From: a virus
Lineage: Duplodnaviria > Caudoviricetes
Length of the DNA: 64,000 bases
Virus record (IMG/VR): IMGVR_UViG_3300042397_003635
Direction: 5' to 3' (one strand)
Both the position numbers and the translations under genes were made by a program. The notes under the pieces are model-generated. The model saw only the letters and a list, made by a program, of their open reading frames with translations. It made no database searches and was not told the DNA's origin. Numbering within the stretch: the first letter of the stretch is position 1; every line of letters begins with the position of its first letter. This document shows positions 2,008-37,628 of this stretch, piece by piece.

Positions 2008-2014
2008 TAGATTT

Positions 2015-2398
2015 TTATCTTTTTCCTTCATGAACCACCTTTAATCCATGGTTTCGGTCAATATACATGTATTCACATGACACTAAACCAAATTGTTCAA
2101 AGTGATCTAAAACTTCATCTGCTGAAAATTCAGAACAAGAGTAAATATCAAATTGAAAAAATGCTGGGTCGGCTTTATCCCAAACGTGAATGGCTGCATG
2201 TGATGTAGCTAAGGTAACTGTACCAGTAATACCTTCATTGCCAGGTTCATCTACATAAATTGAAGTTGGACCGGCTACAACAACCATTCTTACTTTTTTA
2301 ACAAGATCAGTTAGCCACTGATTTAAAATATCTTCATCTTTTGGAGGGTTTTGGATATAGCCTCTTACCAAAAGATGAAGATGATTAGGAGTGAACAT
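2015..2398 (-). CDS. speD: S-adenosylmethionine decarboxylase proenzyme (pyruvoyl, class 1B-like)
   Basis: HLHLLVRG...GITGTVTLATSHAAIHVW...FQFDIYSC matches SpeD/SpeH; cleavage motif TSH rather than ESH. Confidence 0.8.
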   Translation of the reverse strand: MFTPNHLHLLVRGYIQNPPKDEDILNQWLTDLVKKVRMVVVAGPTSIYVDEPGNEGITGTVTLATSHAAIHVWDKADPAFFQFDIYSCSEFSADEVLDHFEQFGLVSCEYMYIDRNHGLKVVHEGKR

Positions 2399-2416: not shown

Positions 2417-3253
2417 TTATTTTAATAGATTGTAATATTCGTTAAAGTGTTTAATACGATCATCAAGACCAATTGTACCACCATTAACTCTTTTAGTTAC
2501 AGCAGTAACGGTTGCAGTATCTGCACCTTTATCGCAAATTGACCAAAGTTTATTTGAATCAAAAAAGAATGCTGCAGAAGCTAAAGGATATTTAGTTGCA
2601 ACTAGGTCTGGATTAGCTACAGTATCTTCACCAATAAACTTAGCGAAATTTGTGTAGTTTGATTTTCCAGTTAATTGAATATAACCACGACCGCGGAATT
2701 TGAAACCATCTTTAGATGCTTCATTACCATTACCCATACGATCTGCATAAACTCTTGAAGCAATTTTCTCAGGATTACGAGCATAAGACTCATTTAGGTT
2801 ACCTGGGAAATATTTACCAAAGATTTTTTTAAGACCATCTGCTGAATAATTAACATTTTCGCTAACGGCTTTAAATCCGCCACTTTCATGACCACACTGT
2901 GCTAAGAAGTGAGCTAAACGCAAAGGAGTAGTAATATTAAATTTAGCAGCAGTATCAGGAATTTGCGCAAGAACTGCATCTGGTACATGACCTTTAAGCG
3001 CAGCTAATTTAAAAGAAGATGGTGGAATTGCGGCAGCAGGGGCTGCAGCTACAGGAGCAGCTGATTCGCTAATACCTAATTTTGCAAGTGTAGCAGGTCC
3101 AGCAATACCATCAGCAGTAAGACCGTTTGCGGTTTGCCATGCTTTTAATTTTGCTTCTGTACCAGGACCAAATGATCCATCTGCACCCGCACCTAATTTT
3201 TCTTGAAGTTTTTTAACTAAGTCTCCGGTAGAACCGATTTTAAGTACTGACAT
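2417..3253 (-). CDS. Endolysin: PG-binding domain 1 plus GH19 lysozyme/chitinase domain
   Basis: N-terminal LQEKLG..ADGSFGPGTEAKLKAWQ..NGL.ADGIAGP.T; C-terminal HFLAQCGHESGGF and FRGRGYIQLTGKSNY. Confidence 0.92.
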   Translation of the reverse strand: MSVLKIGSTGDLVKKLQEKLGAGADGSFGPGTEAKLKAWQTANGLTADGIAGPATLAKLGISESAAPVAAAPAAAIPPSSFKLAALKGHVPDAVLAQIPDTAAKFNITTPLRLAHFLAQCGHESGGFKAVSENVNYSADGLKKIFGKYFPGNLNESYARNPEKIASRVYADRMGNGNEASKDGFKFRGRGYIQLTGKSNYTNFAKFIGEDTVANPDLVATKYPLASAAFFFDSNKLWSICDKGADTATVTAVTKRVNGGTIGLDDRIKHFNEYYNLLK

Positions 3254-25460: not shown

Positions 25461-25913
25461 TTATGCTGTGTGTTCAATCATTACCCTTACACAAGTTTGA
25501 GGTTGGGCTTCGTTCATTAAGAAGTTATTAATATACCCCATAATATTGGCACTTCCAATTGGATTTGCTGAGTGAGTATAGACCAGTGGAAATGGAAAAG
25601 GCTTTCCGCGTTTTACATCTCTCGCCAAGTCGATCCACTTTGGATTCTCATTATAAAACTGGTCAACTAACCATTTAGCACAGTCATATCCAGTTTTCTC
25701 ATTAATGTGAGTATAATCTAAAATATAATTAGGGCTTACATTATTGAAGTACTCACTCATGGCAGAATCCCCTAAGTCATGGTCAAGAGAAATTACTTCA
25801 ATATTTGCTAAACCTGTTTCCTTAACTAGGCTTACAAATTCTTCATAATTTCTAACTACAACCCAGTCAGTTCCAACTGGAGTTCGGACATCGTCTAAAT
25901 AAATTCTAATCAT
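25461..25913 (-). CDS. Cyclic-phosphate-processing receiver domain protein (RNA repair associated)
   Basis: IYLDDVRTP, ISLDHDLG, TGYDCAKWL, HSANPIG..NI. Confidence 0.8.
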   Translation of the reverse strand: MIRIYLDDVRTPVGTDWVVVRNYEEFVSLVKETGLANIEVISLDHDLGDSAMSEYFNNVSPNYILDYTHINEKTGYDCAKWLVDQFYNENPKWIDLARDVKRGKPFPFPLVYTHSANPIGSANIMGYINNFLMNEAQPQTCVRVMIEHTA

Positions 25914-26710: not shown

Positions 26711-29005
26711 TTACTGGCGAAATCCAGTTCTGACTAGATAAAAATTAGTAGTTGAGCCAGATACAAGAGCATCGACGGTTAGCACCTGTAAACCAGGATA
26801 GGTTGAAGTTAAGTTAGTAGTTCCATTATTAATAGGAGTCCAATCGCTAGCTTTAAATATTCTGTAAGCTGGAGTTGAGTTTGGCCAAGCTGAAAGATTA
26901 GAATTTGCTTTAGAATAAACTAGAAAAATATCCGTTATTGATAGAGTTGAATTTCCATTCGCATCCATTCTATAATAATCCTTTGAATTAAATGATTGAC
27001 TTAAAACTTTTTGAGTAAATGATTGAGCATCAGTTGAGGTTGGATTATCTACAGTAATAGAACCAATAACTATTCTAAAATCATTTTTATTTGCACTCAA
27101 TTGGGTCGAAAAAGAATACGCTCCACTTGAATTAGTTGTACTTGAACTAAGTAGATTATAATTTGAATCGGATTTTGGTTTTGAATAAAGCTGAATTGAA
27201 ATATTTGCGATACCAACTCCTTCAGAATTATACACATTTCCAGTTTGTGTAAATGGAGCAACTATAATCATTCCAGCGCTTGAAAAGGTAAATCCACAAG
27301 TTCCATTTTGTAATTGAGCTCTATACAAAACTCCATCAGTTTGATTTGAATATGAATTAGTAGCAGAGGTATTTGTAATATCTGACCAAGTTACTCCATC
27401 ATTAATTGAACGCTGCCATTTAACAATAGTTCCAGTGTAACCGCTTAGAGTTAAGGTACCTGAGTTAGTTGAAGTTGCATGCACAGCAGATGAAACTGAT
27501 CCTCCAACTGGTGGAGTTCCTGAAGTTACAGTAATTGTTTTTGCAGTAGACAGTACCGCGCCTCCGCAGTTTGGCGTTTGTACTTCAACTCGATAATAAT
27601 AAGTTCCAGCTGTAGTAAGTGTTTGATTTAAACTGGCAGTAGTATTTGAAATGTCAGTCCAGTTAACATTATCTGTGGATCTCTGCCATTTATTAATATT
27701 TCCTTGTTGACCGGAAAGGGTAAGTTCAGCCTGTCCACCTGAACAAATTGAATTGTTTGCTGCAAATATTGTTCCTGCATTAGTTGGCTTAACCGATAAA
27801 AAAACACTTGAAGTTGCAAGGCCAGTACATGAAGTTGGACTAGTTGAATTTATAATTGCTCTATAATAAGTGGTTTTAGTTAAGTTAGTTACGGTTATAC
27901 TAGAGGAAGTACTTGTTATAGTTGTTCCAGCTGTAAAGAAGTTATCAAATGAAGATTCCCATCTAACTATACTTCCTGTGTAATTGTTTAAGGTTAAGGT
28001 TGTACTGTTTGAGCCAGAACATACATTAAGATTTCCACCTGATATCCAACCACTTGATGCTCCACTGATTTCAATATTTCTAGTTGAGATAGTTACGCTT
28101 GAAGTTATATCTCCTGGCATATCTCCGTATTCACAAATATAACCCGGTAAGCTTGTATTTGGTAAGTCATTCCATGATCCGCTATTTGCCGAATAAAATT
28201 GTGCATAGTGTTCGCCTCCAGCATTGTTCGGTTCTCCTCCTGCCCATTTGGCATATTGTCCAGTTACTGCAGTTGATGAATTTGAAAATTGAGTTCCTTT
28301 TTCTGGCCCAGTTACCCAGTGCCATTTTTGTTCTACTGCAGCTTGTGAAGCAAATGCAGTTGTACCTTTTGCTGTATTAACTTCACTGACTTCATCGGAT
28401 CCACCAAACCAACCGTCTGATGACATTAACTTCCAAATAAAATTGTTCTCAGCCTCTGACATCATTGTTGCAAGATAACCAGCTCTACCAAAATACGATC
28501 GATTGGAGGCAGAAGTTTTAGCCGCTGTCCATGAACCGCTTGATGAAACGTATTCATAGAAGTGCTCAGTTAGAGGATTATAAAATACTGTACCTGCAAC
28601 AAATGTTACACGTCTTTGGAGAGCATAACAGGTTGCAGTAGTGGATTTAAACTCTACTCCTCTTAAAACGGTTTGCCAATCAGCTGCGCTCGCTGTACCA
28701 TTAAATACTAAAATTCCAGTTGTTGTGTTAAACGCTGAAACACTTACACCTGATGGAAGAGTTGCAGTTGATCTTAATTGATCTCCACTTGCACCACTTG
28801 TATAGGCTTGAGATATCTGAACCCTAAATCCAGTAATTGTTCCATTTGCAGTTACCGCTACGTTTGGATCAACCTTTGTCCAAGTATTATAACTAACAGA
28901 TAGAGTCGAAGAGCTTCCTCCCAAACTAACAGATGTTGCTTGGGCATTTACCAAAGTTGGTGCTAACCAAATAATACTTAGTAATATGAGAGCTCTTTTA
29001 AACAT
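26711..29005 (-). CDS. Exported adhesin-like protein: C-type lectin domain, Ig-like repeats, dockerin-like module
   Basis: SPI then Q; HFYEYV..WT.AK...YLAT..EAEN..WFGG..W.GGEPNN.GGEHY..WND..YICEY; three L.LSG..G.I.KWQ.S repeats; DANGNSTLSITD. Confidence 0.8.
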   Translation of the reverse strand: MFKRALILLSIIWLAPTLVNAQATSVSLGGSSSTLSVSYNTWTKVDPNVAVTANGTITGFRVQISQAYTSGASGDQLRSTATLPSGVSVSAFNTTTGILVFNGTASAADWQTVLRGVEFKSTTATCYALQRRVTFVAGTVFYNPLTEHFYEYVSSSGSWTAAKTSASNRSYFGRAGYLATMMSEAENNFIWKLMSSDGWFGGSDEVSEVNTAKGTTAFASQAAVEQKWHWVTGPEKGTQFSNSSTAVTGQYAKWAGGEPNNAGGEHYAQFYSANSGSWNDLPNTSLPGYICEYGDMPGDITSSVTISTRNIEISGASSGWISGGNLNVCSGSNSTTLTLNNYTGSIVRWESSFDNFFTAGTTITSTSSSITVTNLTKTTYYRAIINSTSPTSCTGLATSSVFLSVKPTNAGTIFAANNSICSGGQAELTLSGQQGNINKWQRSTDNVNWTDISNTTASLNQTLTTAGTYYYRVEVQTPNCGGAVLSTAKTITVTSGTPPVGGSVSSAVHATSTNSGTLTLSGYTGTIVKWQRSINDGVTWSDITNTSATNSYSNQTDGVLYRAQLQNGTCGFTFSSAGMIIVAPFTQTGNVYNSEGVGIANISIQLYSKPKSDSNYNLLSSSTTNSSGAYSFSTQLSANKNDFRIVIGSITVDNPTSTDAQSFTQKVLSQSFNSKDYYRMDANGNSTLSITDIFLVYSKANSNLSAWPNSTPAYRIFKASDWTPINNGTTNLTSTYPGLQVLTVDALVSGSTTNFYLVRTGFRQ

Positions 29006-29007
29006 AA

Positions 29008-29454
29008 TTACATTTTGCTAACTGCGTCTAATAAACTTTTCTTTATAGCGCTAGCGAAAGTTGTTTTTTCAAATGGAAGGTTCTCATCCTTTAATTCAAT
29101 TAAGGTAGATTTAACTGTTGTTTTAGCAGTACCTTCTCCAATATATTCTTTACCATCTTTGGTAACTTTAACTTTAATAATAGTTTCCTTTTTAATTGCA
29201 GTAAAGGGTCCAATTGCAATTCCTGTAGTTGGAGCTTCAATTGAAAATACGTCTACTGTAATTGGCGAACCGTCATTACAAATTGTAAATTTTTCTGAAA
29301 CGATTTCTTCGGCTAATTGTTTAATACCGAAAATTACTCTTTCCTTTTTCATATCAGGCGCATCTGCACTTGCTACAACACTTGTTACTTTATAACAAGG
29401 TTCAGTAAATGAAAGTAGAGTAAGCGTTGATAAAACTAATAATACCTTCTTCAT
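29008..29454 (-). CDS. Exported hypothetical protein
   Basis: Signal peptide MKKVLLVLSTLTLLSF; in operon with CsgG-like gene. Confidence 0.65.
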   Translation of the reverse strand: MKKVLLVLSTLTLLSFTEPCYKVTSVVASADAPDMKKERVIFGIKQLAEEIVSEKFTICNDGSPITVDVFSIEAPTTGIAIGPFTAIKKETIIKVKVTKDGKEYIGEGTAKTTVKSTLIELKDENLPFEKTTFASAIKKSLLDAVSKM

Positions 29455-29468
29455 TTGTTTTTATTTTT

Positions 29469-31166
29469 TTAAAGCATAACCTTACCACCAGTTAAGACCT
29501 GATAGTTAAGCATATTTTTATTCATTTCATAAGTTCCCGAGAAACTTATATTAAATTTAAATTTCTTTGTGATTGAATAATCCCATGAACTAAATGGAAC
29601 TACTAATAAACCTGAACTCCACCATTGGCCTTCATAGAATTGAGTAAATGGAGAATAGACTCCAAGTACTAAAAGGGTACCTGTTATTTTTTTACCTGCG
29701 TTAAACATGTAAAATCCACCTCCAACTGCTGATAAGTTCTGAAACCCAGTTTCTCCAATTTTACCTGCAGTAAAGTTTAAACCGCCCATTAGGGAAAGCT
29801 TAGTAAATCTCTTTGATCCAAGTAAAGTCGTAGTATTAAAGAAGTCCCTTGCTGGATTTACCATTGACGAGTTTGCTGCAATAATTGTAGTTTTACTCTT
29901 AGGTAAAGTCCAAGCTCCATAAAAGGTAATATTTGAATTATTAATTTGAGTAGTAAAGTTTCCTAAAAATCCTCTAGCAAAAGTATTTTTAGTATTAGAC
30001 TTAGTCATACTCATTGTAAATTTAAACTGATCCTTTTCTCCCTCTTCTGCGCTTCGTACTGCAACAATATCTCCTGTTCCAATTAAGGCTCCAGTTCTTG
30101 CTCGGTTTTTATCTCCATTCTTTGAGCTACCTCCGCTTGAACTGTTACCTCCACTGCTACCTCCGCTTGAAGTTGCTTCAGCTGCATTTGATACTGAGTT
30201 AGTTGTTCCACCATTACCTCCGCTTGAATTAGATTGAGTTAATCCACCAGACTCTGTGGTGTTTCCTGTACCTCCGGCTGATCCCGAACCTGTGCCATTA
30301 GTGTTACCATTAGATCCAGTTCCAGTTGTACCAGATGATCCCGTATTACCTACAGGTGGCTGAGACGACGAACCTCCTCCTTGAGTTGACCCACCTGAAC
30401 CTGAACCGTTTCCTCCCGAGCCTGAAGCAGGGTTTCCACCTGTTTGGCCAGATCCTGAACCTGATCCAGTGTTTCCGCTTCCAGTATTTCCACTAGAACC
30501 TGTTGTATTTCCTCCGTTATTAGTAGATGATCCATTTCCTTGATTATTTCCTGAGCCTACTGATCCCGACGAGCTTTGATTGCTGCCTTGACCTGACCCA
30601 CTAGATTGACTACCCCCATTAGAACTAGAGGAGCCATTATTATTGCTGCTATTACTGCCGCCGCTATTCCCATTTCCGCCATTACGATTGTTATTATTTT
30701 TCTTTTCACCACTGCCTCCGTTACCGGTACCGTCTCCACTTGATCCATTATTTACAGTGTTTCCAAGATTACCTCCAACCGTACTTGATGCGCCAGCTAT
30801 GTTTGATGCAAGACTTGACGCCATCATTGATACTGACGTAATATTAGTCAGGGTTGAAATAATATTATTTGTAACAATTAAATTTGTTGATTGAACTGCT
30901 TGTGTTGTTGCTTGATCACAAGGTTTTCCAGCATTTGCGCCAGATGTTTGATTTAACCAAGCTAAAAATGCTCCATTACTAAAATCGGTATTAGTAAATG
31001 TTCCAACTTGTCCATAATATGTAACAGCAATAGCTGCTCCACTTAATGGAACTGAAACAAATTTAATATTTTTTGTACATGGATCTACATATTGATAAAT
31101 GTAGCTTTGCGCTTTTACTAAGGAAGTAGAAGCAAATAAAAATACCAGTAAGATTAGGTTTTTCAT
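29469..31166 (-). CDS. Exported protein with long Gly/Ser/Asn low-complexity linker and probable C-terminal beta-barrel
   Basis: SPI then Q; over 200 aa G/S/N-rich; C-terminal alternating aromatic/hydrophobic strands. Confidence 0.7.
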   Translation of the reverse strand: MKNLILLVFLFASTSLVKAQSYIYQYVDPCTKNIKFVSVPLSGAAIAVTYYGQVGTFTNTDFSNGAFLAWLNQTSGANAGKPCDQATTQAVQSTNLIVTNNIISTLTNITSVSMMASSLASNIAGASSTVGGNLGNTVNNGSSGDGTGNGGSGEKKNNNNRNGGNGNSGGSNSSNNNGSSSSNGGSQSSGSGQGSNQSSSGSVGSGNNQGNGSSTNNGGNTTGSSGNTGSGNTGSGSGSGQTGGNPASGSGGNGSGSGGSTQGGGSSSQPPVGNTGSSGTTGTGSNGNTNGTGSGSAGGTGNTTESGGLTQSNSSGGNGGTTNSVSNAAEATSSGGSSGGNSSSGGSSKNGDKNRARTGALIGTGDIVAVRSAEEGEKDQFKFTMSMTKSNTKNTFARGFLGNFTTQINNSNITFYGAWTLPKSKTTIIAANSSMVNPARDFFNTTTLLGSKRFTKLSLMGGLNFTAGKIGETGFQNLSAVGGGFYMFNAGKKITGTLLVLGVYSPFTQFYEGQWWSSGLLVVPFSSWDYSITKKFKFNISFSGTYEMNKNMLNYQVLTGGKVML

Positions 31167-31876
31167 CGTCTAAAAACTCCCTTTTTGATCAACTTGCTTA
31201 CAACTCGTGAAGCAGCAGTCTCAAGGGATTTCTTAGTAGATATACCGATCGTTGATTGATTAAATTTAACTTCATCAACTCCGTCCAATAGACTTGCTTT
31301 CTTAACGGTGATGGCTTCTCCAAGACCTGAGCCAGTAATTATTTCACCGGTTTCAGCATCAACAAATCTTACTTGAAGGCCGATTGTGGTTTTTTGTTTA
31401 ACCTCTGCACCAGATACTTGAATTTCTTCATCTTCTGAAATTGCAAAGTCATAAACTTCGATATACACAAAATATTTAGCAAGGATAACATTTCCTTTTA
31501 CCTGAATAGTATTTGCTGAGATTCCCTTATCTGATGCTTTTTGTTGAGCAATCATTTTTTGTTTAATCTCTTCTCTGTCCTCTGTGAATTTAAATCTATC
31601 GGTTGATTCTAAAAATTCAAGAACAATATTGGCAACACCAAGACCCACACGATTGTCCTTTAATTCAGGGTACATTGCATAGAGTTCTTCGTTAATACCA
31701 ATTTTTAATACCTGTATAGGAATTACAATAGTATCATCGTAATTTGCAACAAGGTTTATTGACTGTTTCTTTTCAAAATCAGCCTGATAGGTTTCAGTTT
31801 TAGTTGAACCAATGGTTTGAGCTTGAGCACCCACCGCCAATAGCAGCATGATGCAAATTACGATTAACTTTTTCAT
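31163..31876 (-). CDS. CsgG/HfaB-family outer-membrane secretion/assembly protein
   Basis: SPI then Q; FLESTDRFKFTEDREEI, YIEVYDF, IGLQVRFVDAETGEII.GSG.GEA. Confidence 0.75.
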   Translation of the reverse strand: MKKLIVICIMLLLAVGAQAQTIGSTKTETYQADFEKKQSINLVANYDDTIVIPIQVLKIGINEELYAMYPELKDNRVGLGVANIVLEFLESTDRFKFTEDREEIKQKMIAQQKASDKGISANTIQVKGNVILAKYFVYIEVYDFAISEDEEIQVSGAEVKQKTTIGLQVRFVDAETGEIITGSGLGEAITVKKASLLDGVDEVKFNQSTIGISTKKSLETAASRVVSKLIKKGVFRR

Positions 31877-31991
31877 ATTCCAAATTTATAGGCAATAAAT
31901 CCAATACCACCGAACCATGCCGCTGCTATTAAAATTATTTTCCAGTTTTCTTCAAAAAAGGAGTAAACCTTTTTCATAGGACTCAATTTTT

Positions 31992-32381
31992 TTATTCAGC
32001 AGTATTAGATAAAGACTGACCGTCTTCTTCGTCAACTTTCTGAATTAACATTTTGTCGCGATCTTCTGAATTAAACCAGTAGTCAACAACTTTATTTAGG
32101 TTACCAACGAATGCACCTAAAAGAATTAATAACATTTCTTTCCAGTCTTCTCCGATAGTAGCACCCATAAATACGCCAGCATTAATTCCTACAATAATTA
32201 AAGTGAATAACCCTAATACAATTGCAGTAATTCTCCATCTGTTTGCTTGCATTTGCTGTAACATGTAATAGAATCTGTTCTTATCATCTACTTTTACATA
32301 TTCTTCTTTTCCGAAGCCTAATGCATTTTTAACCGTTTCTTTAATAGACATTTTAGTGTTCTTTATTTTTTTAATTACCAA
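31992..32381 (-). CDS. Two-TM membrane protein
   Basis: Two hydrophobic helices then VVDYWFNSED. Confidence 0.65.
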   Translation of the reverse strand: MVIKKIKNTKMSIKETVKNALGFGKEEYVKVDDKNRFYYMLQQMQANRWRITAIVLGLFTLIIVGINAGVFMGATIGEDWKEMLLILLGAFVGNLNKVVDYWFNSEDRDKMLIQKVDEEDGQSLSNTAE

Positions 32382-32698
32382 GACTCTTCTTCTTTCTTAG
32401 GTTCAGCCTTAGGTTTTGCAGGTTCTGCTGCAGGTTTTTCAATAACACGCTCTTTAATAATTGTGTTAGTTCCACCAGATTGTTTTTGTTGGTTAGTGTT
32501 ATTGTTTTCAAGGTTGATTACAACTGGAGCAGGGGCTGGGGCAGCTTGTTCAGTTTTAGTCTCTTCCTTGTCGCTTCCACCACCGAAAAGAGTAGTAGTC
32601 AAATAGGTTCCACCTGCTAATACTGCAGTTGAAAGAGTTCCTATGATGGTCTTTTTAAGACCTGACCAAGTGCCTTCGTTTTGTGTTTCTTCAGACAT
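32375..32698 (-). CDS. Single-TM protein with Pro/Asn-rich tail
   Basis: TIIGTLSTAVLAGGTYL hydrophobic segment. Confidence 0.65.
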   Translation of the reverse strand: MSEETQNEGTWSGLKKTIIGTLSTAVLAGGTYLTTTLFGGGSDKEETKTEQAAPAPAPVVINLENNNTNQQKQSGGTNTIIKERVIEKPAAEPAKPKAEPKKEEESW

Positions 32699-32724
32699 TG
32701 TGAGTTTGTTTTTTTATTATTTAA

Positions 32725-34659
32725 TTACTTTGAAACTATTTCTTTTGCGGATGCAATTTTCTTACCTGCGGTTAGGATCGCATAGTAAATTCCACCTTGA
32801 ACATGACTTAAGTCTGTACTATAAGTATAGGTTCCAGCTGGCATAAATTGATTTACTAGGGTTTTAATTGGCTGACCTAATTGATCTCTAAATGTAAGAT
32901 TAACCATTGCATCTTCTAAAACGTTAAAGGTTACTGCAACATGACCTTGAGTTGGGTTTGGTGCAAGTTTAACTGTCATTAAATTATTTTCAATAGTTCC
33001 TACTCCCCATCCTGGATTAACAATTAAGACTTGAATAATTCCGTCAGTCGGGGTAATGTTTAAATCTTTATGAGTTGTATTAACTCCAGCATATTTTCTA
33101 GTCACATAAAGCGGGCTTTTATTCCATTGATCTTTTGGAACAAGCGCTAGGAATTGAAGATTAAACGCAGTTTGTCCATCTGCAATTGGGTGAGTTGTTG
33201 TAAAATCTGCACCGCCCCATTCGATAGTTCCATCTTGTGGGTTTACAAAAGACAACCAGTGTGAAATATTTTCAGTAGCTGCGATTGATTTGAATTCAAG
33301 TAATTGTGGATCGTATTTTAAAGCTAATTGAAGAGATCCTACTTGAACATTGCTAGATAAAACTTTAACTGGAACATTAAGAAGATTACCTGCTTCAACT
33401 GTAATTTCTGGCATGTTTACTTCAATTGTTTCTAAAGTGGCTGCATTATCATATTGAGTTGTTGCATCAATAATATGGTTTGGTGCATTGTTTGGATTAA
33501 CAATTTGAATAGGAACCATACGCGCCATGTGGAAACCAGTGCCGTTTGCATCTCCTTTACCTAATACATAGAATGTTACAGAATCGGGTTGACCCGCAAC
33601 AATATCAAATGTAATATCGGTTACACCTGGAATTGATGCAGTATAATTGGTAGTTGAACCATTGATTGTTGCATATTGAGAAGCAGTAAAGAATTTAACA
33701 TCCATTGTATTATTTGGCCATGCCGAGAATCTTCCAGCTAATCTACCATAGATACCATAAGCATCTGTAATTGAGATAGTATTATCTGAGTTTACATCAG
33801 CTGCATAGTAATCAAATCCAGTTGGAGTTGCTTGTCCTAATACATATTGGTTTACTTTAGCAGCATCTGCTGTTGAAATTGTATTACCTACAGTAAGGGT
33901 ATCACCTTTAACATAGAGGCGTGCATTGAAATAAGTTGTATCGACAACTACATCATTAAATGCAAATGCTCCAGATACGGCAGTCGTATCCATTTTGATA
34001 GTTGTCCAAGTACCACCAGTTTTTGGTCTTTGTTGTAATTGAACAATAATGTTTTTAGAACCAGAACCTGTTACGTTAGTGAATGTACCATGGTAATTAA
34101 GAGATGGGCGTAAGAAGATACCACCGTAATTGTGTTGGCTTAGTGTACCATCAGTACCATCTTGTTTTGCTAACAATTGAGGGAAAGAGTTACCAGTAGT
34201 TGGTGACCAAGTTAAGTTTGAAATTGCAGTTAGGGCTTGGAATGTAGTATTCGCAGCATGTGTAAATGTAATTTCAAAAGTTTCGCCTTCAGCTAGCGTC
34301 CATGTACTACTTGAACCAGTATAAACTAAGGTAATTGTAATAAACCCGTTTACTGAATCAGTTTGATATGAAAGAACTTCATTTGATGCAGATGTAACAG
34401 CCGCCACAGTTGCACCAGTAAACGCAGTCTTATCATAGAATACTCTAAATTGAAGACCTGTTACTAGAGTCGAAGTGTTATTTTTATAAGTAATTCTTGC
34501 TTTAGTTTGACCAAGCAAAGACGATCCAACTGTATAGTTGGTGTCAATAATTACCCAAGCTCCTGAAGATGGGGCTGGGGGACCCGTTTGGGCATAAGTT
34601 TCTGTGGTAGCCGCAAAACATAATACAGCACACAAAATGGTTAATAACCAGTTTTTCAT
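32725..34659 (-). CDS. T9SS cargo protein with cohesin-like and dockerin-like modules
   Basis: SPI then Q; VTGLQFRVFYD and VGSLQLALKYDPQLLEF cohesin-like; DVNSDNTISITD dockerin-like; C-terminal APNP...G.Y...GIYYAIL...K.IVSK type A sorting domain. Confidence 0.82.
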   Translation of the reverse strand: MKNWLLTILCAVLCFAATTETYAQTGPPAPSSGAWVIIDTNYTVGSSLLGQTKARITYKNNTSTLVTGLQFRVFYDKTAFTGATVAAVTSASNEVLSYQTDSVNGFITITLVYTGSSSTWTLAEGETFEITFTHAANTTFQALTAISNLTWSPTTGNSFPQLLAKQDGTDGTLSQHNYGGIFLRPSLNYHGTFTNVTGSGSKNIIVQLQQRPKTGGTWTTIKMDTTAVSGAFAFNDVVVDTTYFNARLYVKGDTLTVGNTISTADAAKVNQYVLGQATPTGFDYYAADVNSDNTISITDAYGIYGRLAGRFSAWPNNTMDVKFFTASQYATINGSTTNYTASIPGVTDITFDIVAGQPDSVTFYVLGKGDANGTGFHMARMVPIQIVNPNNAPNHIIDATTQYDNAATLETIEVNMPEITVEAGNLLNVPVKVLSSNVQVGSLQLALKYDPQLLEFKSIAATENISHWLSFVNPQDGTIEWGGADFTTTHPIADGQTAFNLQFLALVPKDQWNKSPLYVTRKYAGVNTTHKDLNITPTDGIIQVLIVNPGWGVGTIENNLMTVKLAPNPTQGHVAVTFNVLEDAMVNLTFRDQLGQPIKTLVNQFMPAGTYTYSTDLSHVQGGIYYAILTAGKKIASAKEIVSK

Positions 34660-34721
34660 TTTAAATCTAGACCTTTTCTTATTATTTATCTAAATCAATA
34701 TTTTTAAAGGTCACCTGAAAC

Positions 34722-34750
34722 AAAAAAAGAGGAACAATTTGTTCCTCTTT
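34722..34750 (-). terminator. Intrinsic terminator
   Basis: AAAAGAGGAACA-ATT-TGTTCCTCTTTT palindrome with A/T tracts. Confidence 0.75.
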
Positions 34751-34773
34751 TGGCCGGAGTTAATGTCTCCCGA

Positions 34774-34941
34774 TTACTTAGTTGCAGTAGTGTCTACGGT
34801 TGCAGTCGAGTCTGCTGCTACTACAGTTGAGTCTACTTGTGTAGAGTCAGCCGCAGGAGCGTCAGCGGTCGTTGCACCATTTCCACATGCAGTAAATCCT
34901 ACTGCAGCAACTAGAATCATTACGATTGCGTACTTTTTCAT
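34774..34941 (-). CDS. Small lipoprotein (55 aa) with D-S/T-T motifs
   Basis: MKKYAIVMILVAAVGFTA-CGNG...DSTQVDSTVVAADSTATVDTTATK; missing from track (only the antisense ORF listed). Confidence 0.8.
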   Translation of the reverse strand: MKKYAIVMILVAAVGFTACGNGATTADAPAADSTQVDSTVVAADSTATVDTTATK

Positions 34942-35000
34942 AGCTATGGTTTTTGGTTTTGTTTTGTAAAGATATTATACCCAATTTGGGCACTTTGGTT

Positions 35001-35615
35001 TTAAATTCCAGACTCTTCAAATGCTTGCCTCATTCTTGCAGAGAGTTGATCATATCTCATGTTAAATTTTGGCGAACAGGCATTAAGAACAGTCTTATTT
35101 GAATATGGTGTGTTACCAGGTTTACACCATTTTCTAGAAGTAAGCATCCAATTATAGAAGAGAACATAAGCGTTTGCACTCTTAGTATACTTTTCAATAT
35201 TAATAGGCAAATTGAAGTCCCTTATTAATTGAACACTACGTTTTTCGTTATCTAGTTCAAGATCTCTAGATAGGGCCATCCATTTTTCAATATTACGTTT
35301 AGTTGCACCATTTAACCACTCTTCAATATGACCCATTGCATAGCCAGATTCTTTCCAAATAGGAATCTTTTCATTCCATTGGGTAAAGTGTCCAAATTCG
35401 TGTACTAAAACTTCAACTGATACTGGATTTAACATGGCAACCACAAGTTTTCGATTTTGGTCATCGAAATAACCTGAACACTTCATACCCTGACCAAGTC
35501 TTAGGTATCTAACGTTTCTCAGTTCGACTTTGATTCCAGTATTTTTACATTCAGACTTTACGTGCTTAATGAATGCTTTAATACGTGGATGTTCTAGTCG
35601 ACTGGCGGTTGTCAT
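35001..35615 (-). CDS. Putative Zn metalloprotease-like protein
   Basis: VLVHEFGH (HExxH), downstream ELDNE. Confidence 0.55.
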   Translation of the reverse strand: MTTASRLEHPRIKAFIKHVKSECKNTGIKVELRNVRYLRLGQGMKCSGYFDDQNRKLVVAMLNPVSVEVLVHEFGHFTQWNEKIPIWKESGYAMGHIEEWLNGATKRNIEKWMALSRDLELDNEKRSVQLIRDFNLPINIEKYTKSANAYVLFYNWMLTSRKWCKPGNTPYSNKTVLNACSPKFNMRYDQLSARMRQAFEESGI

Positions 35616-35621
35616 ATAAAA

Positions 35622-36356
35622 TTATTTATTTGGCTTCCATACGAGGCCGATTTGAAAGACCCCATCGTATGGTTTAACCTCTGGTTTTACCCAAGTTTGA
35701 TAAGTTTGGTGATTAACGTCACCGCCAAGTGAAAATGATAGGCTTTTTGATAGTGGGTGCTCTACTAAAACAATAACCCTGCTTACCATGTTATTACTTG
35801 CACTAGCACCGGTGTTAGAAAATAAAGGCGGCTGCACAAGGGCAGTAACTGTTAACTTAGTTAATGTACCCAAAACCAGCTTAGTTCTGGTCGAACTTCT
35901 TATGGTCCAGGTTCGGTTTCCTTCTATTAGCTGAAGCTGCTCGGTTGTTACTGCTTGTGAAACTTCCAGTTTTTTGCCAGGCAGATCAATTACAGTAACC
36001 TTATAACCAGCCCCTCCGGTCACCCTGAAATCCACCTTTCTGGTATATGAATGTTCCCCTTCGCTAAATAATATAAGTGACTGGACCTTATCCAGAGTCT
36101 TCCAGCCATATACCGAGGCTGTAATATCCCGTCTTTGTAGAACCATTACCTCATTAATTGAAGCATATTGAACCTGTCCAGAAAGGGTTGCAATTCCACC
36201 AAGCTTTCCAGTGTCCTTTGACTTGTATTCTCCCTTTGCGCCAATTAAATAGCCAGCTCGATTACCAACATTGAGCATGCCATTTATGGAATAGGCTTGT
36301 GTTTGAGCCTTTACCAAACTTGGTAAAAAGCATAATATAAAAATTAGTTTCTTCAT
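35622..36356 (-). CDS. Exported outer-membrane beta-barrel-like protein
   Basis: SPI then Q; alternating strands; ends FQIGLVW. Confidence 0.65.
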   Translation of the reverse strand: MKKLIFILCFLPSLVKAQTQAYSINGMLNVGNRAGYLIGAKGEYKSKDTGKLGGIATLSGQVQYASINEVMVLQRRDITASVYGWKTLDKVQSLILFSEGEHSYTRKVDFRVTGGAGYKVTVIDLPGKKLEVSQAVTTEQLQLIEGNRTWTIRSSTRTKLVLGTLTKLTVTALVQPPLFSNTGASASNNMVSRVIVLVEHPLSKSLSFSLGGDVNHQTYQTWVKPEVKPYDGVFQIGLVWKPNK

Positions 36357-37321
36357 TGTGGAATTAAGGTTTGGGCAACTGATACAGATTTAGTCATTGC
36401 AAAAATTGTTTTAGCAATTGGTTTTGCACAGCTAACAGTTTTTATTTTTTCATGAAAATTTGAGGGAATTGACGTACTAATAACTAGAGAATCTAGAAAT
36501 TGGCCGTTTTCACCGCTTAGTCTTTCATAAGCTGGGCCAGATAAAACGCCGTGCGTACAAATAGCATGGACCCGTAATGCTCCAGCTTCCTTTAGTAGCT
36601 TTGCTGCTAGCAAAAGAGTTCCACCAGTATCGACCATATCATCAATTAAGATTACACATCGACCTTTAACGTCTCCAATAAGATCCATTCGCTCAATTGA
36701 ATTTGGCTTGTCTCTTAATTTAGATAGCATTGAAAAAGTCGCTGTTTCATGGGTCTTAACAAAGTGTTGATAAAAACGGTTGGCTCGCTTTACTCCACCT
36801 GCATCAGGGGAACATACTGTCCAATCACAAGTTGGATCCAATTCTTTTACATAATCAGTAAATGCAACCCATCCAGGAATGTGTTCAACTGGCATATCAA
36901 AGAAACCTTGAATTTGTTCTGAATGTAGATCAAATAAGATGGCTTTGTCTGCTCCAGCATTTTTAATAAGATCAGCTATTGCTTTTCCACCAATTGAACC
37001 GCGATGTCCCTCTCTACGATCTTGTCTTGAATATGCAAGGTACGGTAGAATAACAATAATTTCAGATGCGGATGCACGTTTAGCTGCATCAATTGAAAGT
37101 ACTAATTTAATTATTGCATCTGAACTTGTTAGGGTTGTAACAAGAAAAACAGATTTATCTCTAATTGATTCTAAGAATTGAGGACTAAACTCTCCATCAG
37201 AGAATTTATCAATTTTAAATTTACCTACTCTAATATCAGAATCAGTTAATTCTGAAAGGTGCTCGCAAATTTCATTTGCAATTGGACGGCCGTCGATTGA
37301 GAAAATCTTGTATTGTTTCAT
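36353..37321 (-). CDS. prs: Ribose-phosphate pyrophosphokinase
   Basis: FSDGE, PYLAYSRQDR, DLHSEQIQGFF, CSPDAGG, LIDDMVDTGGT, THGVLSG; start MKQYKI. Confidence 0.93.
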   Translation of the reverse strand: MKQYKIFSIDGRPIANEICEHLSELTDSDIRVGKFKIDKFSDGEFSPQFLESIRDKSVFLVTTLTSSDAIIKLVLSIDAAKRASASEIIVILPYLAYSRQDRREGHRGSIGGKAIADLIKNAGADKAILFDLHSEQIQGFFDMPVEHIPGWVAFTDYVKELDPTCDWTVCSPDAGGVKRANRFYQHFVKTHETATFSMLSKLRDKPNSIERMDLIGDVKGRCVILIDDMVDTGGTLLLAAKLLKEAGALRVHAICTHGVLSGPAYERLSGENGQFLDSLVISTSIPSNFHEKIKTVSCAKPIAKTIFAMTKSVSVAQTLIPQ

Positions 37322-37322
37322 T

Positions 37323-37628
37323 TTAGTTTTGTTCTTTAACAAAGGTTCCGTTAACCATTTTACCTGTACGCTTGGCAATAACATCATAAGATCCGTTAAT
37401 GCACTCTTCAATTGTATAACCCTTTAATTTGGCTAGGTTTGTAAGTACCACGACGCAATCGCCAATTGCATCTTTAAATTCAGCTTCATCCTGTTTTAAG
37501 AGTGATTGAGCAAGCTCTCCCATCTCTTCGCATAATTTAATGTACTGTGTTTTAGGATCGCCTTTAGCGTAGATTCCTTTGTTTTCTGCCCAATCTCTAA
37601 TGGATTGGAATTCATTTGTTAATTGCAT
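37323..37628 (-). CDS. mazG: MazG-like nucleotide pyrophosphohydrolase
   Basis: KLCEEMGEL...DAIGD. Confidence 0.85.
   Translation of the reverse strand: MQLTNEFQSIRDWAENKGIYAKGDPKTQYIKLCEEMGELAQSLLKQDEAEFKDAIGDCVVVLTNLAKLKGYTIEECINGSYDVIAKRTGKMVNGTFVKEQN

What the first reader, a model, noticed from the sequence alone, without database searches (positions are those of the whole stretch)
26711..36356. Phage-encoded host-surface assembly cassette: CsgG-like pore, T9SS cohesin/dockerin scaffold and lectin adhesin
Seen: ten co-oriented exported or membrane genes, the main run starting at a GATAAATA (34683-90). They include a T9SS-sorted protein with two cohesin-like domains and a dockerin-like loop (32725); a lectin/Ig-repeat protein without a T9SS tail but with a clearly paralogous ~170-aa module (DYY..D.N....SITD...SAWPN) (26711); a CsgG/HfaB-like protein; a G/S/N-rich putative barrel protein; two inner-membrane proteins; a small lipoprotein; and another barrel. 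Established: T9SS CTDs direct surface secretion in Bacteroidota; cohesin-dockerin pairs assemble cellulosomes; CsgG exports curli. Inference: the infected cell is decorated with a phage-built adhesin complex (aggregation, particle attachment, receptor masking or grazer evasion) using the host T9SS plus its own channel.
Basis: partly seen in the sequence, partly recalled or inferred. Interest (0 to 1): 0.85.

Follow-up and report, generated by a model that had tools for sequence, protein, structure and literature searches.

The report
Phage-encoded lectin display operon using T9SS
A large group of big Flavobacterium-infecting phages carries a conserved late operon that appears to hang swappable sugar-binding proteins on the infected cell's surface through a cohesin-dockerin plug-and-socket and the host's type IX secretion system; nobody has studied it, and a cultured phage-host pair exists to test it.

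Summary

**Unit.** The conserved unit is seven genes, A-G (26711-34659, minus strand). The HExxH protein and the DUF481 barrel (35001-36356) lie behind a terminator and occur only in close relatives.

**Display half, supported.**
- G is a Sec/T9SS protein. Across its family, Por_Secre_tail hits 22/22 members and Cohesin 20/22.
- A is a C-type lectin with EPN/WND motifs. Its C-terminal dockerin-like module is paralogous to one inside G (hhalign 99.9%).
- Lectin heads are swapped between phages, while the module is constant.
- In the cultured Flavobacterium phage immuto, G is split into dockerin and cohesin+CTD proteins.
- Docking of A's module on G's cohesin got only weak support (score 0.36, best control 0.00).

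**Pore half, not shown.**
- D has a confident CsgG fold (Z 13.5), and B is its paralogue.
- D's hairpins are short and charged, and this copy has no lipobox.
- C's barrel is unproven.

**New here.**
- GATAAATA is a positional, late-type promoter element: 8 of 8 coding-strand copies precede ORF starts.
- The endolysin abuts the cassette in 17 of 26 informative lineages.

The scan had already noted this cassette in at least 12 other genomes, with no follow-up. I found no published description.

The parts
34683..34690 (-). GATAAATA promoter-like element, 23 nt upstream of G's start codon
   Evidence: Sequence read. All 8 coding-strand GATAAATA copies in the window lie 5-27 nt before an ORF start, and 6 lie at 20-27 nt. 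It resembles the T4 late promoter TATAAATA (established knowledge). Upstream of G it is conserved only in the nearest relative, L009.
34725..34751 (-). Intrinsic terminator that closes the upstream unit, so G opens a new transcription unit
   Evidence: 12-pair stem plus T-run, the best terminator in the 11.7-kb scan. Sequence read.
32725..34659 (-). G: secreted scaffold/anchor protein. Order of parts: signal peptide, N-domain, transthyretin-like domain plus dockerin-like module, cohesin, T9SS type A C-terminal domain.
   Evidence: Pfam single-sequence scan. Family tally: Por_Secre_tail 22/22, Cohesin 20/22, Dockerin_1 13/22. Family profile vs PDB: dockerin 4uyp_B E=1.6e-4. At least 2372 relatives, the top 120 of which carry precomputed PF00963, PF18962 or both.
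33004..33459 (-). G cohesin domain (aa 401-552)
   Evidence: Profile A10 matches cellulosomal cohesins over their full length (2vn5_A E=2.5e-4, 1g1k_A, 6kg8_A and others).
33460..34125 (-). G middle module (aa 179-400): transthyretin-like beta-sandwich plus dockerin-like Ca-loop/helix pair (canonical loop D288-x-N-x-D-x6-D299)
   Evidence: Invariant columns of A2/A12. Paralogous to A's C-terminal module at 99.9%.
32728..33003 (-). G T9SS type A C-terminal sorting domain (aa 553-644), with PNP, GxY and C-terminal K-rich motifs
   Evidence: Weak profile matches to solved CTDs 8glk_D and 8glj_D.
32375..32698 (-). F: single-pass inner-membrane protein with a Pro/Lys/Glu-rich periplasmic tail and an invariant C-terminal Trp (EEESW). 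It always sits between G and D.
   Evidence: Alignment A5. Gene order in 32 lineages.
31992..32351 (-). E: two-TM membrane protein with a nearly invariant second helix and acidic tail. The probable true start is the ATG at 32351. It is present in about half the lineages.
   Evidence: Sequences. Order table. The nearest Atlas clusters are all viral and unnamed.
31163..31876 (-). D: secreted CsgG-fold protein, the most conserved gene of the cassette
   Evidence: 275 viral relatives. Model pLDDT 85, pTM 0.78. CsgG 6lqh_A Z=13.5, rmsd 2.8 A over 177 residues. Foldseek E=1.2e-7. Family Pfam tally: CsgG 22/45, LpoB 10/45. Profile vs E. coli CsgG E=1.3e-4.
29469..31166 (-). C: secreted protein with three parts. 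A conserved N-domain holds an invariant Cys pair (30831-31166). A hypervariable G/S/N/T-rich linker follows. The orphan conserved C-terminal domain (29472-30113) often ends in GGKxxF.
   Evidence: Alignment A3. No Pfam or PDB match for either domain. Beta-amphipathic signal z=1.4. Atlas leads only. At least 1139 relatives, all unnamed.
29008..29454 (-). B: small secreted paralogue of D (CsgG/LpoB-like core without D's insertion), with two conserved Cys
   Evidence: hhalign A1 vs A4: 95%, E=3.9e-8. Alignment A4. A bacterial tandem B-like/D-like pair exists in L095.
26711..29005 (-). A: secreted lectin-adhesin. Order of parts: signal peptide, C-type lectin domain with EPN/WND motifs (about 28130-28480), Ig-like repeats, transthyretin-like plus dockerin-like module (26714-27274). 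It has no T9SS CTD.
   Evidence: Family tally: Lectin_C 19/27, Laminin_G_3 5, plus PA14, GEVED and Ig_7. Module paralogy. Docking on G's cohesin got weak support.
34774..34941 (-). 55-aa lipoprotein ORF (lipobox VGFTAC) in the upstream unit. Not part of the conserved cassette.
   Evidence: Sequence read. An RNA-library contig covers it.
35001..36356 (-). H (HExxH protein with no export signal, 35001-35615) and I (DUF481 outer-membrane barrel, 35622-36356). Lineage-specific neighbours, not part of the conserved cassette.
   Evidence: Pfam scan. Both occur only in the 8 closest loci.
2417..3253 (-). Endolysin (PG_binding_1 + GH19). It lies about 23 kb from the cassette here, but adjoins the cassette in most related lineages.
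   Evidence: Pfam scan. Within 1.5 kb of the cassette in 44/85 loci and 17/26 informative lineages.

Best explanation
**What it is.** This is a conserved, probably late-transcribed envelope operon. It belongs to a clade of large myophages of Flavobacterium and related Bacteroidota, ranging from the 160-kb Immutovirus to this phage of at least 262 kb. All of its products enter the host envelope.

**Shown**
- G is a Sec-exported protein with a cohesin domain and a T9SS type A sorting domain.
- A is a Sec-exported C-type lectin. Its C-terminal dockerin-like module is a paralogue of a module inside G.
- The glycan-binding head of A is exchanged between phages, while the module stays constant.
- D and B are a pair of CsgG-fold paralogues.
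- The order G-F-D-C-B is fixed across 32 lineages.

**Inferred mechanism**
- The host T9SS carries G to the cell surface and anchors it there.
- Dockerin-tagged proteins (A here; two separate proteins in phage immuto) plug into the cohesin in a Ca-dependent way. The infected cell then displays phage-chosen lectins.
- F, E, D, C and B form an accompanying envelope complex. It is more likely an outer-membrane-proximal ring (D/B) with an outer-membrane partner (C) and inner-membrane partners (F, E) than a curli-type pore.

**Inferred role**
- The unit starts at a late-type promoter, and the endolysin adjoins it in two thirds of lineages. It therefore probably acts at the end of infection.
- The lectins would bind host-type surface glycans. 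They could do so in cis, masking receptors on the dying cell and its debris so that progeny are not wasted.
- They could also do so in trans, gluing the infected cell to neighbouring hosts.
For: **Phage context and host**
- Context genes.
- 275 viral relatives of D.
- Isolated relative on Flavobacterium sp. LMO8.

**Synteny**
- A-G recur in about 80/85 loci, with a fixed G-F-D-C-B order in 32 lineages.
- A lineage only 38% identical in D keeps the F-E-D-C core.

**Domains**
- Por_Secre_tail 22/22 and Cohesin 20/22.
- Full-length cohesin matches in the PDB.
- Dockerin match 4uyp_B, E=1.6e-4.
- Lectin_C 19/27, with alternative Laminin_G_3 and PA14 heads.
- A/G module paralogy, E=6.7e-32.

**Export**
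- Signal peptides followed by [ASG]-Q in 21/22 G, 25/27 A, 22/23 C and 11/12 D. This fits the Bacteroidota Q-rule (established knowledge).

**Fission and fusion**
- Immuto gp014 (N-domain plus dockerin), gp015 (cohesin plus CTD) and gp013 (lectin plus dockerin) each have their own signal peptide.

**Docking: verdict weak support**
- Median score 0.36 (runs 0.36, 0.45, 0.30); best of 3 controls 0.00.
- The runs agree in at least 79% of contacts, and the partner's pLDDT is at least 90.
- The mark was reached by 58/80 solved complexes and 2/110 mismatched pairs. At 0.60 or under it was reached by only 7 of those 80 and by both mismatches that passed.

**Timing**
- Terminator, then GATAAATA, before G. 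8/8 coding-strand GATAAATA copies precede ORF starts.
- Endolysin within 1.5 kb in 17/26 informative lineages, in three configurations.

**Expression**
- RNA-library contigs from 4 studies cover every cassette gene.
Against: - No experiment bears on any of this.
- The docking score is weak, and it may reflect the model's memory of solved cohesin-dockerin complexes.
- A has no known signal for crossing the outer membrane, so surface display of A is an inference.
- In this copy the CTD, dockerin and lectin hits are each just below curated cut-offs.
- The first Ca-loop of the dockerin is degenerate.
- RNA-library contigs cannot exclude carried-over DNA, and they give no timing.
- GATAAATA upstream of G is conserved only in the nearest relative.
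- In phage immuto the cassette lies among replication and nucleotide-metabolism genes, 5.7 kb from its endolysin.
- The biological role (masking versus clumping) is not constrained by any data here.
- The functions of C, E and F are unknown.
Confidence: 0.5

Rival explanations
1. Lysis module. The core F-E-D-C-B is the membrane part of the phage's lysis machinery for a Bacteroidota envelope. E would be a holin or holin regulator. F would be an inner-membrane periplasm-spanning component. D/B and C would be outer-membrane components that breach the outer membrane after the endolysin acts, as a spanin equivalent. The cohesin/lectin proteins would be passengers or accessories.
For: - The endolysin adjoins the cassette in 17/26 informative lineages, on either side.
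- The unit has a late-type promoter.
- Genes that flank the endolysin in this window (tm102, with an N-terminal TM helix and coiled coil, and the Ala/Glu-rich p413) lie inside the cassette, between F and D, in about ten loci.
- E has two TM helices and a charged tail, with a faint sub-threshold holin lead in the Atlas (0.78).
- No recognisable spanin genes were seen.
- D-fold relatives (LptE, PelC, PqiC, TolB N-domain) belong to trans-envelope machines.
Against: - G is always directly coupled to F-D-C-B, and A is almost always present. A pure lysis module does not explain this.
- Dependence on a host secretion system is odd for lysis.
- E is missing in about half the lineages. It is far more conserved than holins usually are, and its tail is acidic, not basic.
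- F lacks the coiled coil of i-spanins.
- D is much larger than o-spanins, and here it has no lipid anchor.
- Nine lineages, including this one and immuto, have no adjacent endolysin.
Confidence: 0.2
2. D forms a CsgG-type oligomeric outer-membrane pore, the phage's own channel. The pore exports the CTD-less lectin A, or the unfolded G/S/N-rich part of C, to the surface, where it joins the T9SS-anchored scaffold.
For: - CsgG is clearly the best structural match for D: Z=13.5 over 177 residues, against Z of about 8-10 over about 130 residues for the generic lipoproteins.
- The profile also matches E. coli CsgG by sequence.
- A lacks any outer-membrane export signal, so some route is needed.
- C's long low-complexity region is the kind of unfolded chain that a CsgG channel passes.
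- Some orthologues of D keep a lipobox.
Against: - D's hairpin 1 is 20 residues with 7 charged, including a conserved SEDEE run. CsgG's TM1 region is 26 residues with 5 charged. The hairpin-2 equivalent is short, polar and modelled with lower confidence.
- The best TM-scores are to the soluble pre-pore form of CsgG.
- This phage's D has an SPase-I site and no lipidated Cys.
- Relatives of D are periplasmic modules fused to caspases or kinases.
- A is a large folded multi-domain protein, which CsgG's narrow constriction could not pass (established knowledge of CsgG).
- No CsgE, CsgF or curlin-like genes are present.
Confidence: 0.12
3. Nutrient capture. The displayed lectins act like Bacteroidota surface glycan-binding proteins. 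They would concentrate polysaccharide at the infected cell's surface and feed uptake systems, including the phage's own TonB-dependent receptor, to fuel late replication.
For: - The same window encodes a TonB-dependent receptor (45956-48442) and a SulP permease.
- It also encodes several nucleotide-metabolism genes.
- The heads are carbohydrate-binding modules (C-type lectin, ConA-like, PA14).
Against: - The TonB-dependent receptor is not linked to the cassette in the related loci examined.
- No glycoside hydrolases or SusD-like genes accompany the cassette.
- Late timing and endolysin linkage leave little time for a nutritional benefit.
Confidence: 0.08
4. The large proteins A and G are virion parts (fibres or decoration proteins), and the apparent export signals are irrelevant.
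For: - Late-type promoter.
- Swappable binding heads on a constant attachment module resemble receptor-binding proteins.
- One G orthologue gave a weak phage_tail_N hit.
Against: - Near-universal cleavable signal peptides obeying the Q-rule.
- A T9SS CTD in 22/22 G orthologues.
- No PHROG structural family matches.
- In phage immuto the cassette lies outside the structural region.
- Tailed-phage virions assemble in the cytoplasm (established knowledge).
Confidence: 0.03

Closest known systems
Cellulosome-type cohesin-dockerin assemblies (anchoring scaffoldin, adaptor scaffoldin, dockerin-tagged subunits), including non-cellulosomal cohesin/dockerin modules
   Same: - It has a cohesin domain with full-length profile matches to cellulosomal cohesins.
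- It has dockerin-like Ca-loop/helix repeats; the best PDB hit is the ScaB adaptor dockerin.
- One anchor carries interchangeable dockerin-tagged modules. In phage immuto this is a three-protein anchor and cargo layout.
   Different: - It is encoded by a lytic phage, not a bacterium.
- The cargo are lectins, not enzymes.
- The anchor is a T9SS C-terminal domain, not an SLH domain or sortase signal.
- The dockerin is embedded between a transthyretin-like domain and a further beta-rich segment, and its first Ca-loop is degenerate.
- Binding is only predicted, and weakly.
T9SS type A cargo proteins of Bacteroidota (Por_Secre_tail / TIGR04183)
   Same: - G has a Sec signal peptide plus a C-terminal domain of about 90 aa with PNP and GxY motifs. 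Pfam recognises this domain in 22/22 orthologues.
- The host genus is Flavobacterium.
   Different: - It is phage-encoded.
- This copy is sub-threshold in both libraries (25.5 vs 27 bits; 16.7 vs 23 bits).
- Secretion has not been tested.
CsgG curli secretion channel and the wider CsgG/LpoB/PelC/LptE-like lipoprotein fold
   Same: - CsgG is D's best fold match (Z=13.5, rmsd 2.8 A over 177 residues; Foldseek E=1.2e-7).
- Homology is detectable by profile.
- D has a small paralogous partner (B), and distant relatives are lipoproteins.
   Different: - There are no curli subunit genes and no CsgE or CsgF genes.
- The hairpins are shorter and charged.
- This copy has no lipid anchor.
- Oligomeric state and pore formation were not tested.
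Phage-encoded surface modifiers and receptor maskers (such as T5 Llp and Cor-type lipoproteins; TraT-like surface exclusion)
   Same: - Phage genes put proteins into the host outer envelope during infection.
- The proposed benefit is protection of progeny and exclusion of competitors.
- TraT appears among the weaker fold matches of D (Z=7.1).
   Different: - Those are single small lipoproteins that block one protein receptor. This is a cassette of seven or more genes with a modular lectin display system.
- It is probably late, not early.
- The masking function is purely inferred.

Membership tests
T9SS type A cargo (Por_Secre_tail PF18962 / TIGR04183) | C-terminal sorting domain recognised by the family HMM | tested here: met
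   The window copy is just below cut-off (PF18962 25.5 vs 27; TIGR04183 16.7 vs 23). Even so, 22/22 orthologues match at E<=0.01, best 1.1e-11. PF18962 is precomputed on all 120 top relatives.
T9SS type A cargo (Por_Secre_tail PF18962 / TIGR04183) | N-terminal Sec signal peptide, and a host that possesses a T9SS | tested here: met
   A signal peptide with A-Q cleavage context occurs in 21/22 members. The isolated relative infects Flavobacterium sp. LMO8. That Flavobacterium has a T9SS is established knowledge.
T9SS type A cargo (Por_Secre_tail PF18962 / TIGR04183) | T9SS-dependent secretion and surface attachment | not testable with these tools
   This needs expression in wild-type versus T9SS-mutant Flavobacterium.
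Cohesin (PF00963) | Domain recognised above the curated cut-off, with full-length similarity to solved cohesins | tested here: met
   39.6 bits against a cut-off of 24.1. 20/22 orthologues match. Profile A10 covers 2vn5_A residues 6-149 at E=2.5e-4, plus more than 9 other cohesins. This holds only for the C-terminal domain. The N-terminal domain fails.
Dockerin (PF00404) | Two tandem Ca-binding loop-helix (F-hand) repeats recognised by the HMM | tested here: inconclusive
   - G scores 19.7 against a cut-off of 22.9.
- 13/22 G orthologues and 3/27 A orthologues hit.
- The G profile hits ScaB dockerin 4uyp_B at E=1.6e-4.
- The second loop is canonical (DxNxDx6D) and invariant. The first loop is one residue longer and degenerate.
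Dockerin (PF00404) | Ca-dependent binding to a cognate cohesin | tested here: inconclusive
   Complex prediction gave weak support. The score was 0.36 and the best control 0.00. Contacts agreed in at least 79%, and the partner's pLDDT was at least 90. This is not a measurement.
C-type lectin domain (PF00059) | Domain recognised by the HMM, with the Ca/sugar-binding EPN and WND motifs | tested here: met
   The window copy scores 18.9 against a cut-off of 22.6. 19/27 orthologues match, best 1e-17. GGEPNN...WNDLPN is present in the window protein and in the family consensus. Sugar binding was not tested.
CsgG curli channel (PF03783) | CsgG fold and detectable homology | tested here: met
   The window copy scores 18.2 against a cut-off of 20.8. 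In the deep family, 22/45 match, best 1.9e-17. The profile hits E. coli CsgG at E=1.3e-4. The model (pLDDT 85) matches 6lqh_A at Z=13.5.
CsgG curli channel (PF03783) | N-terminal lipidated cysteine (outer-membrane lipoprotein) | tested here: not met
   The window's D ends its signal peptide with AQA|Q and has no lipobox. 3/12 close orthologues and most distant relatives do have one.
CsgG curli channel (PF03783) | Two amphipathic hairpins long enough to build the 36-strand transmembrane barrel | tested here: inconclusive
   Hairpin 1 is 20 residues with 7 charged, against 26 residues with 5 charged in CsgG. The hairpin-2 equivalent is short and polar, with pLDDT 66-72. This leans against a pore. 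No oligomer model could be run.
CsgG curli channel (PF03783) | Companion genes csgE/csgF and curlin-repeat substrates | tested here: not met
   No such families were found in any cassette protein.
Two-component spanin / holin lysis cassette | Small membrane proteins encoded beside the endolysin: a holin with 2-3 TM helices, an i-spanin with an N-terminal TM helix plus coiled coil, and a small o-spanin lipoprotein | tested here: inconclusive
   Endolysin adjacency holds in 17/26 lineages. However, F lacks a coiled coil, D and B are not small lipoproteins, E is absent in about half the lineages, and no family HMM matches.

The most novel reading that the evidence does not exclude
**Piggy-back secretion.** Dockerin-tagged phage proteins that have a Sec signal but no T9SS sorting domain are A here, and gp013 and gp014 in phage immuto.
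- They would bind the cohesin of the CTD-bearing carrier in the periplasm.
- They would then be carried, folded, through the host T9SS translocon.
- One sorting domain would thus export a whole interchangeable set of lectins.
- The conserved F-(E)-D-C-B complex would chaperone or gate this assembly at the envelope, timed with the endolysin.

This would be a portable, phage-owned surface-display platform and a new mode of T9SS use.
Probability: 0.15. Interest if true: 0.88.

Novelty: new variant of a known kind. Interest (0 to 1): 0.72.

Why it matters
**For phage biology.** If right, lytic phages of an ecologically dominant bacterial group do more than reprogram metabolism. They would rebuild the surface of the dying cell with their own modular adhesin system, borrowing a host secretion machine. 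Flavobacteria and their relatives recycle algal and freshwater organic matter, so this would be new phage biology for that group.

**Scale.** The family is large, with thousands of unnamed homologues in freshwater and marine metagenomes. It is strongly conserved, and its lectin heads diversify the way receptor-binding proteins do. This suggests an arms-race function such as receptor masking, cell clumping or control of release.

**Open questions it makes testable.**
- How CTD-less proteins reach the Bacteroidota surface.
- What replaces spanins in phages of this phylum.

**Tractability.** Phage vB_FspM_immuto and its host Flavobacterium sp. LMO8 are in culture, so the questions can be tested directly.

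**Tools.** Orthogonal cohesin-dockerin pairs with a T9SS tag would be useful for surface display in Bacteroidota.

Tried and rejected
- **Whole genome:** none is held for this window.
- **Megablast of 20 kb against GenBank phages:** no match.
- **PHROGs and NCBIfam on single proteins:** essentially uninformative.
- **First D model, from 12 near-identical sequences:** too poor to use (pLDDT 56). It was replaced by the deep-alignment model.
- **D-family profile from close relatives against PDB sequences:** nothing.
- **Exact TATAAATA enrichment test:** negative (4 seen, 8.7 expected). This test was too narrow, and the positional GATAAATA analysis superseded it.
- **RTATTTAT late motif** suggested by other notes: not upstream of any ORF in this window.
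- **G's N-terminal domain as a second cohesin:** not supported.
- **C's domains:** no Pfam or PDB relatives. The beta-barrel amphipathicity signal is only z=1.4. The Atlas gives weak OMP leads only.
- **Genome-contig scan with the deep D alignment:** With the close alignment, the 5 'bacterial' hits were phage contigs binned into Bacteroidota MAGs. No cellular copy of the cassette was found.
- **Context of bacterial D-like genes:** contigs were mostly too short. One showed D-like, a 124-aa gene and DUF3187. One showed a tandem B-like/D-like pair.
- **The 151-aa ORF at 1-453** that travels with the endolysin: no Pfam hit.
- **tm131 and tm102 as the general holin/spanin of the clade:** not conserved beside the endolysin elsewhere.
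- **Literature searches:** no description of such a phage cassette.
- **Virion-part reading:** rejected because of the signal peptides and the CTD.

Full report
**1. What is there**

The region is a run of minus-strand genes. I label them:
- A, 26711-29005, 764 aa
- B, 29008-29454, 148 aa
- C, 29469-31166, 565 aa
- D, 31163-31876, 237 aa
- E, 31992-32351/32381
- F, 32375-32698, 107 aa
- G, 32725-34659, 644 aa
- a 55-codon lipoprotein ORF, 34774-34941
- H, 35001-35615
- I, 35622-36356

The surroundings are those of a large phage:
- T4-type topoisomerase II subunits, the anti-Thoeris protein Tad6, a PRPP synthetase and, unusually, a TonB-dependent receptor.
- An RNA ligase, ClpP, an IMPDH/GMP reductase-family enzyme and a GH19 endolysin.

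No whole genome is held. A protein identical to G lies on a 262,644-bp contig.

**2. Extent and conservation**

- D has 275 relatives in IMG/VR at 65-100% identity.
- tblastn over 85 fetched loci finds A-G in about 80 of them. H and I appear only in the 8 closest loci.
- A strong terminator (34725-34751) separates the H/I/lipoprotein unit from G.
- After collapsing to 32 lineages, the order G-F-D-C-B never changes. A moves around, and E is present in about half.
- A lineage only 38% identical in D still has F-like, E, D and C in a row.
- The five hits in 'bacterial' genome assemblies are phage contigs binned into Flavobacterium, Sediminibacterium and other Bacteroidota MAGs. No cellular copy of the cassette was found.
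- An isolated relative exists: Flavobacterium phage vB_FspM_immuto (160 kb, host Flavobacterium sp. LMO8). Its homologous genes are gp013-gp019, annotated only as hypothetical, 'cohesin domain-containing' and 'lectin C-type domain-containing' proteins.

**3. The display half (G and A)**

Family-level tests are clear:

| Test | Result |
|---|---|
| Por_Secre_tail in G orthologues | 22/22 |
| Cohesin in G orthologues | 20/22 |
| Dockerin_1 in G orthologues | 13/22 |
| G cohesin profile vs solved cohesins | full-length matches |
| G profile vs ScaB adaptor dockerin | E=1.6e-4 |
| Lectin_C in A orthologues | 19/27 |
| A's C-terminal ~180 aa vs G residues 179-400 | hhalign 99.9%, E=6.7e-32 |

*Lectin heads.* The EPN/WND sugar-binding motifs are present in the window's A and in the A-family consensus. 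Other A orthologues carry ConA-like (Laminin_G_3), PA14, GEVED or Ig_7 heads instead. The design is therefore variable glycan-binding heads on a constant dockerin-like module.

*G's N-terminal domain.* It is not demonstrably a cohesin.

*Signal peptides.* Nearly all A, C, D and G orthologues have signal peptides followed by [ASG]-Q. This fits the Bacteroidota Q-rule for signal peptidase I substrates (established knowledge) and argues for real export in that host.

*Natural fission.* In phage immuto and many other lineages G is split. gp014 carries the N-domain plus dockerin module. gp015 is a minimal cohesin+CTD protein. gp013 is the lectin plus dockerin. Each has its own signal peptide. Such fusion and fission is classic evidence for functional coupling, and it fits an anchor with plug-in cargo.

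*Docking test.* The direct test used G's cohesin plus A's module, with Ca. The verdict was weak support.
- Median score 0.36 (runs 0.36, 0.45, 0.30); best of three controls 0.00.
- The runs agreed in at least 79% of contacts, and the partner's pLDDT was at least 90.
- The mark was reached by 58 of 80 solved complexes and 2 of 110 mismatched pairs. At 0.60 or under it was reached by only 7 of those 80 and by both mismatches that passed.
- My own alignments and a ligand were used, so the calibration holds only roughly. A pass may reflect memory of solved cohesin-dockerin complexes.

**4. The CsgG-like half (D, B, C, E, F)**

*D has the CsgG fold.*
- A first model of D was poor.
- An exhaustive profile search found 280 clusters at 50% identity. 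They include bacterial lipoproteins and fusions of the D-like domain to caspase-like peptidases or to Ser/Thr kinases.
- With this deeper alignment the model reached pLDDT 85 and pTM 0.78.
- CsgG is clearly the best match. VIA gives Z=13.5 and rmsd 2.8 A over 177 residues. Cj1090c, PelC and LptE score Z of about 8-10 over about 130 residues. Foldseek gives E=1.2e-7.
- Pfam CsgG hits 22/45 members, and the profile finds E. coli CsgG at E=1.3e-4.

*Pore formation is a separate matter.*
- The two hairpins that build CsgG's barrel are shorter and densely charged in D, with a conserved SEDEE run.
- The second hairpin is modelled with lower confidence.
- The best TM-scores are to the soluble pre-pore form of CsgG.
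- This phage's D has no lipobox.
- There are no csgE, csgF or curlin genes.

*The other core proteins.*
- B is a shorter paralogue of D (95%, E=3.9e-8). A tandem B-like/D-like pair also exists in a bacterial contig.
- C has a conserved N-domain with an invariant Cys pair, a linker of about 45-350 residues of G/S/N/T-rich low complexity, and a conserved 215-residue C-domain that often ends in GGKxxF.
- Neither C domain has Pfam or PDB relatives.
- The beta-amphipathic signal in C's C-domain is weak (z=1.4), so 'barrel' remains a guess.
- F is a single-pass protein with a Pro/Lys/Glu-rich tail and an invariant C-terminal Trp.
- E has two TM helices and is almost invariant where present.

**5. 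Timing and the lysis link (new here)**

*Promoter.*
- Exact TATAAATA is not enriched.
- All 8 GATAAATA copies on the coding strand lie 5-27 nt before an ORF start. Six lie at 20-27 nt, including G's at 23 nt.
- This positional element resembles the T4 late promoter (established knowledge).

*Endolysin linkage.* I followed leads in earlier scan notes.
- The orthologue of the window's endolysin lies within 1.5 kb of the cassette in 44/85 loci.
- That is 17 of 26 informative lineages, in three configurations: 12 downstream on the same strand, 2 upstream on the same strand, and 3 upstream on the opposite strand.
- In this window the endolysin is about 23 kb away (2417-3253).
- Two genes that flank the endolysin here are a TM/coiled-coil protein (1723-2031) and an Ala/Glu-rich 413-aa protein (473-1714). 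In about ten other loci they lie inside the cassette, between F and D.

*Expression.* RNA-library contigs from four independent freshwater or marine studies cover pieces of every cassette gene, some with 0-2 differences. This is consistent with transcription but does not prove it.

**6. Reading**

*Best supported.* This is a late, endolysin-linked envelope operon. Its G and A proteins form a T9SS-anchored cohesin-dockerin display of swappable lectins. F-(E)-D-C-B forms an accompanying envelope complex built on a CsgG-fold pair.

*Likely role.* The heads diversify like receptor-binding proteins and the timing is late. I therefore infer that the lectins bind host-type surface glycans. This would mask receptors on the dying cell and its debris, or glue the cell to neighbours. 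That step is inference only.

*Open questions.*
- How A crosses the outer membrane.
- What C, E and F do.

*Rivals, in order.*
- A lysis or outer-membrane-disruption role for the core.
- Nutrient capture.
- Virion parts.

**7. Novelty**

Literature searches found no description of a phage cohesin/dockerin/T9SS cassette. Only the domain labels in the immuto GenBank record exist. This scan's first readers had already noted the same cassette in at least 12 other phage genomes, with no follow-up. The parts belong to known families, but their combination in a lytic phage is new. I therefore class it as a new variant of a known kind, of high interest because it is widespread and testable in culture.

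Noticed in passing
window 45956-48442 (-) and 41527-42666 (-): The phage encodes a full TonB-dependent receptor (CarboxypepD_reg, Plug and barrel). It also encodes a SulP-family permease wedged between the two T4-type topoisomerase II subunit genes. Both are unusual transport genes for a phage.
   Followed up: partly
window, coding (-) strand: 61811, 58040, 55674, 48811, 39605, 34690, 7758, 4422: All eight GATAAATA copies on the coding strand lie 5-27 nt upstream of an ORF start. This is a positional, T4-late-like promoter element. Several of the downstream genes begin with the amphipathic N-terminal motif that other notes call capsid-targeting-like.
   Followed up: partly
window 1723-2031 (-) and 473-1714 (-); L016-L023, L032, L061 between F and D: A TM/coiled-coil protein and an Ala/Glu-rich, TolA-domain-II-like 413-aa protein sit beside the endolysin here. 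In about ten related loci they lie inside the cassette. Cassette genes and endolysin-neighbourhood genes therefore intermix.
   Followed up: partly
window 2015-2398 (-); L025 5859-6254: An S-adenosylmethionine decarboxylase-like gene sits directly next to the endolysin in this phage and in L025-type relatives.
   Followed up: no
window 1-453 (-), open at the window edge: A 151-aa ORF without any Pfam match recurs in 21 related loci, next to the endolysin or right after the cassette.
   Followed up: partly
window 37628-38353 (-), 36353-37411 (-), 25461-25913 (-): A Tad6 anti-Thoeris homologue, a PRPP synthetase and a cyclic-phosphate-processing receiver domain (cREC_REC) protein flank the cassette.
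   Followed up: no
window 35001-35615 (-) and L025 7112-7567 (-): Small HExxH proteins lie next to the cassette in two lineages. Here H carries HEFGH and has no signal peptide. In L025 an unrelated-looking HESKH protein has a signal peptide and lies on the opposite strand. They may be peptidases associated with the module.
   Followed up: no
proteins P0096, P0109, P0131 and P0099, P0103, P0106: In bacteria the D-like CsgG/LpoB-type domain occurs at the C-terminus of Ser/Thr kinases, after a TM helix and a Pro-rich linker. It also occurs at the N-terminus of caspase-like lipoproteins. It may therefore be a general periplasmic sensor or docking module.
   Followed up: no
upstream of G in L033, L036, L038, L050, L054, L062, L066, L071: An ATATTTAT[AT] motif lies 25-45 nt upstream of G in these divergent relatives, in place of GATAAATA. 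Other scan notes report the same motif before virion genes in their genomes.
   Followed up: partly
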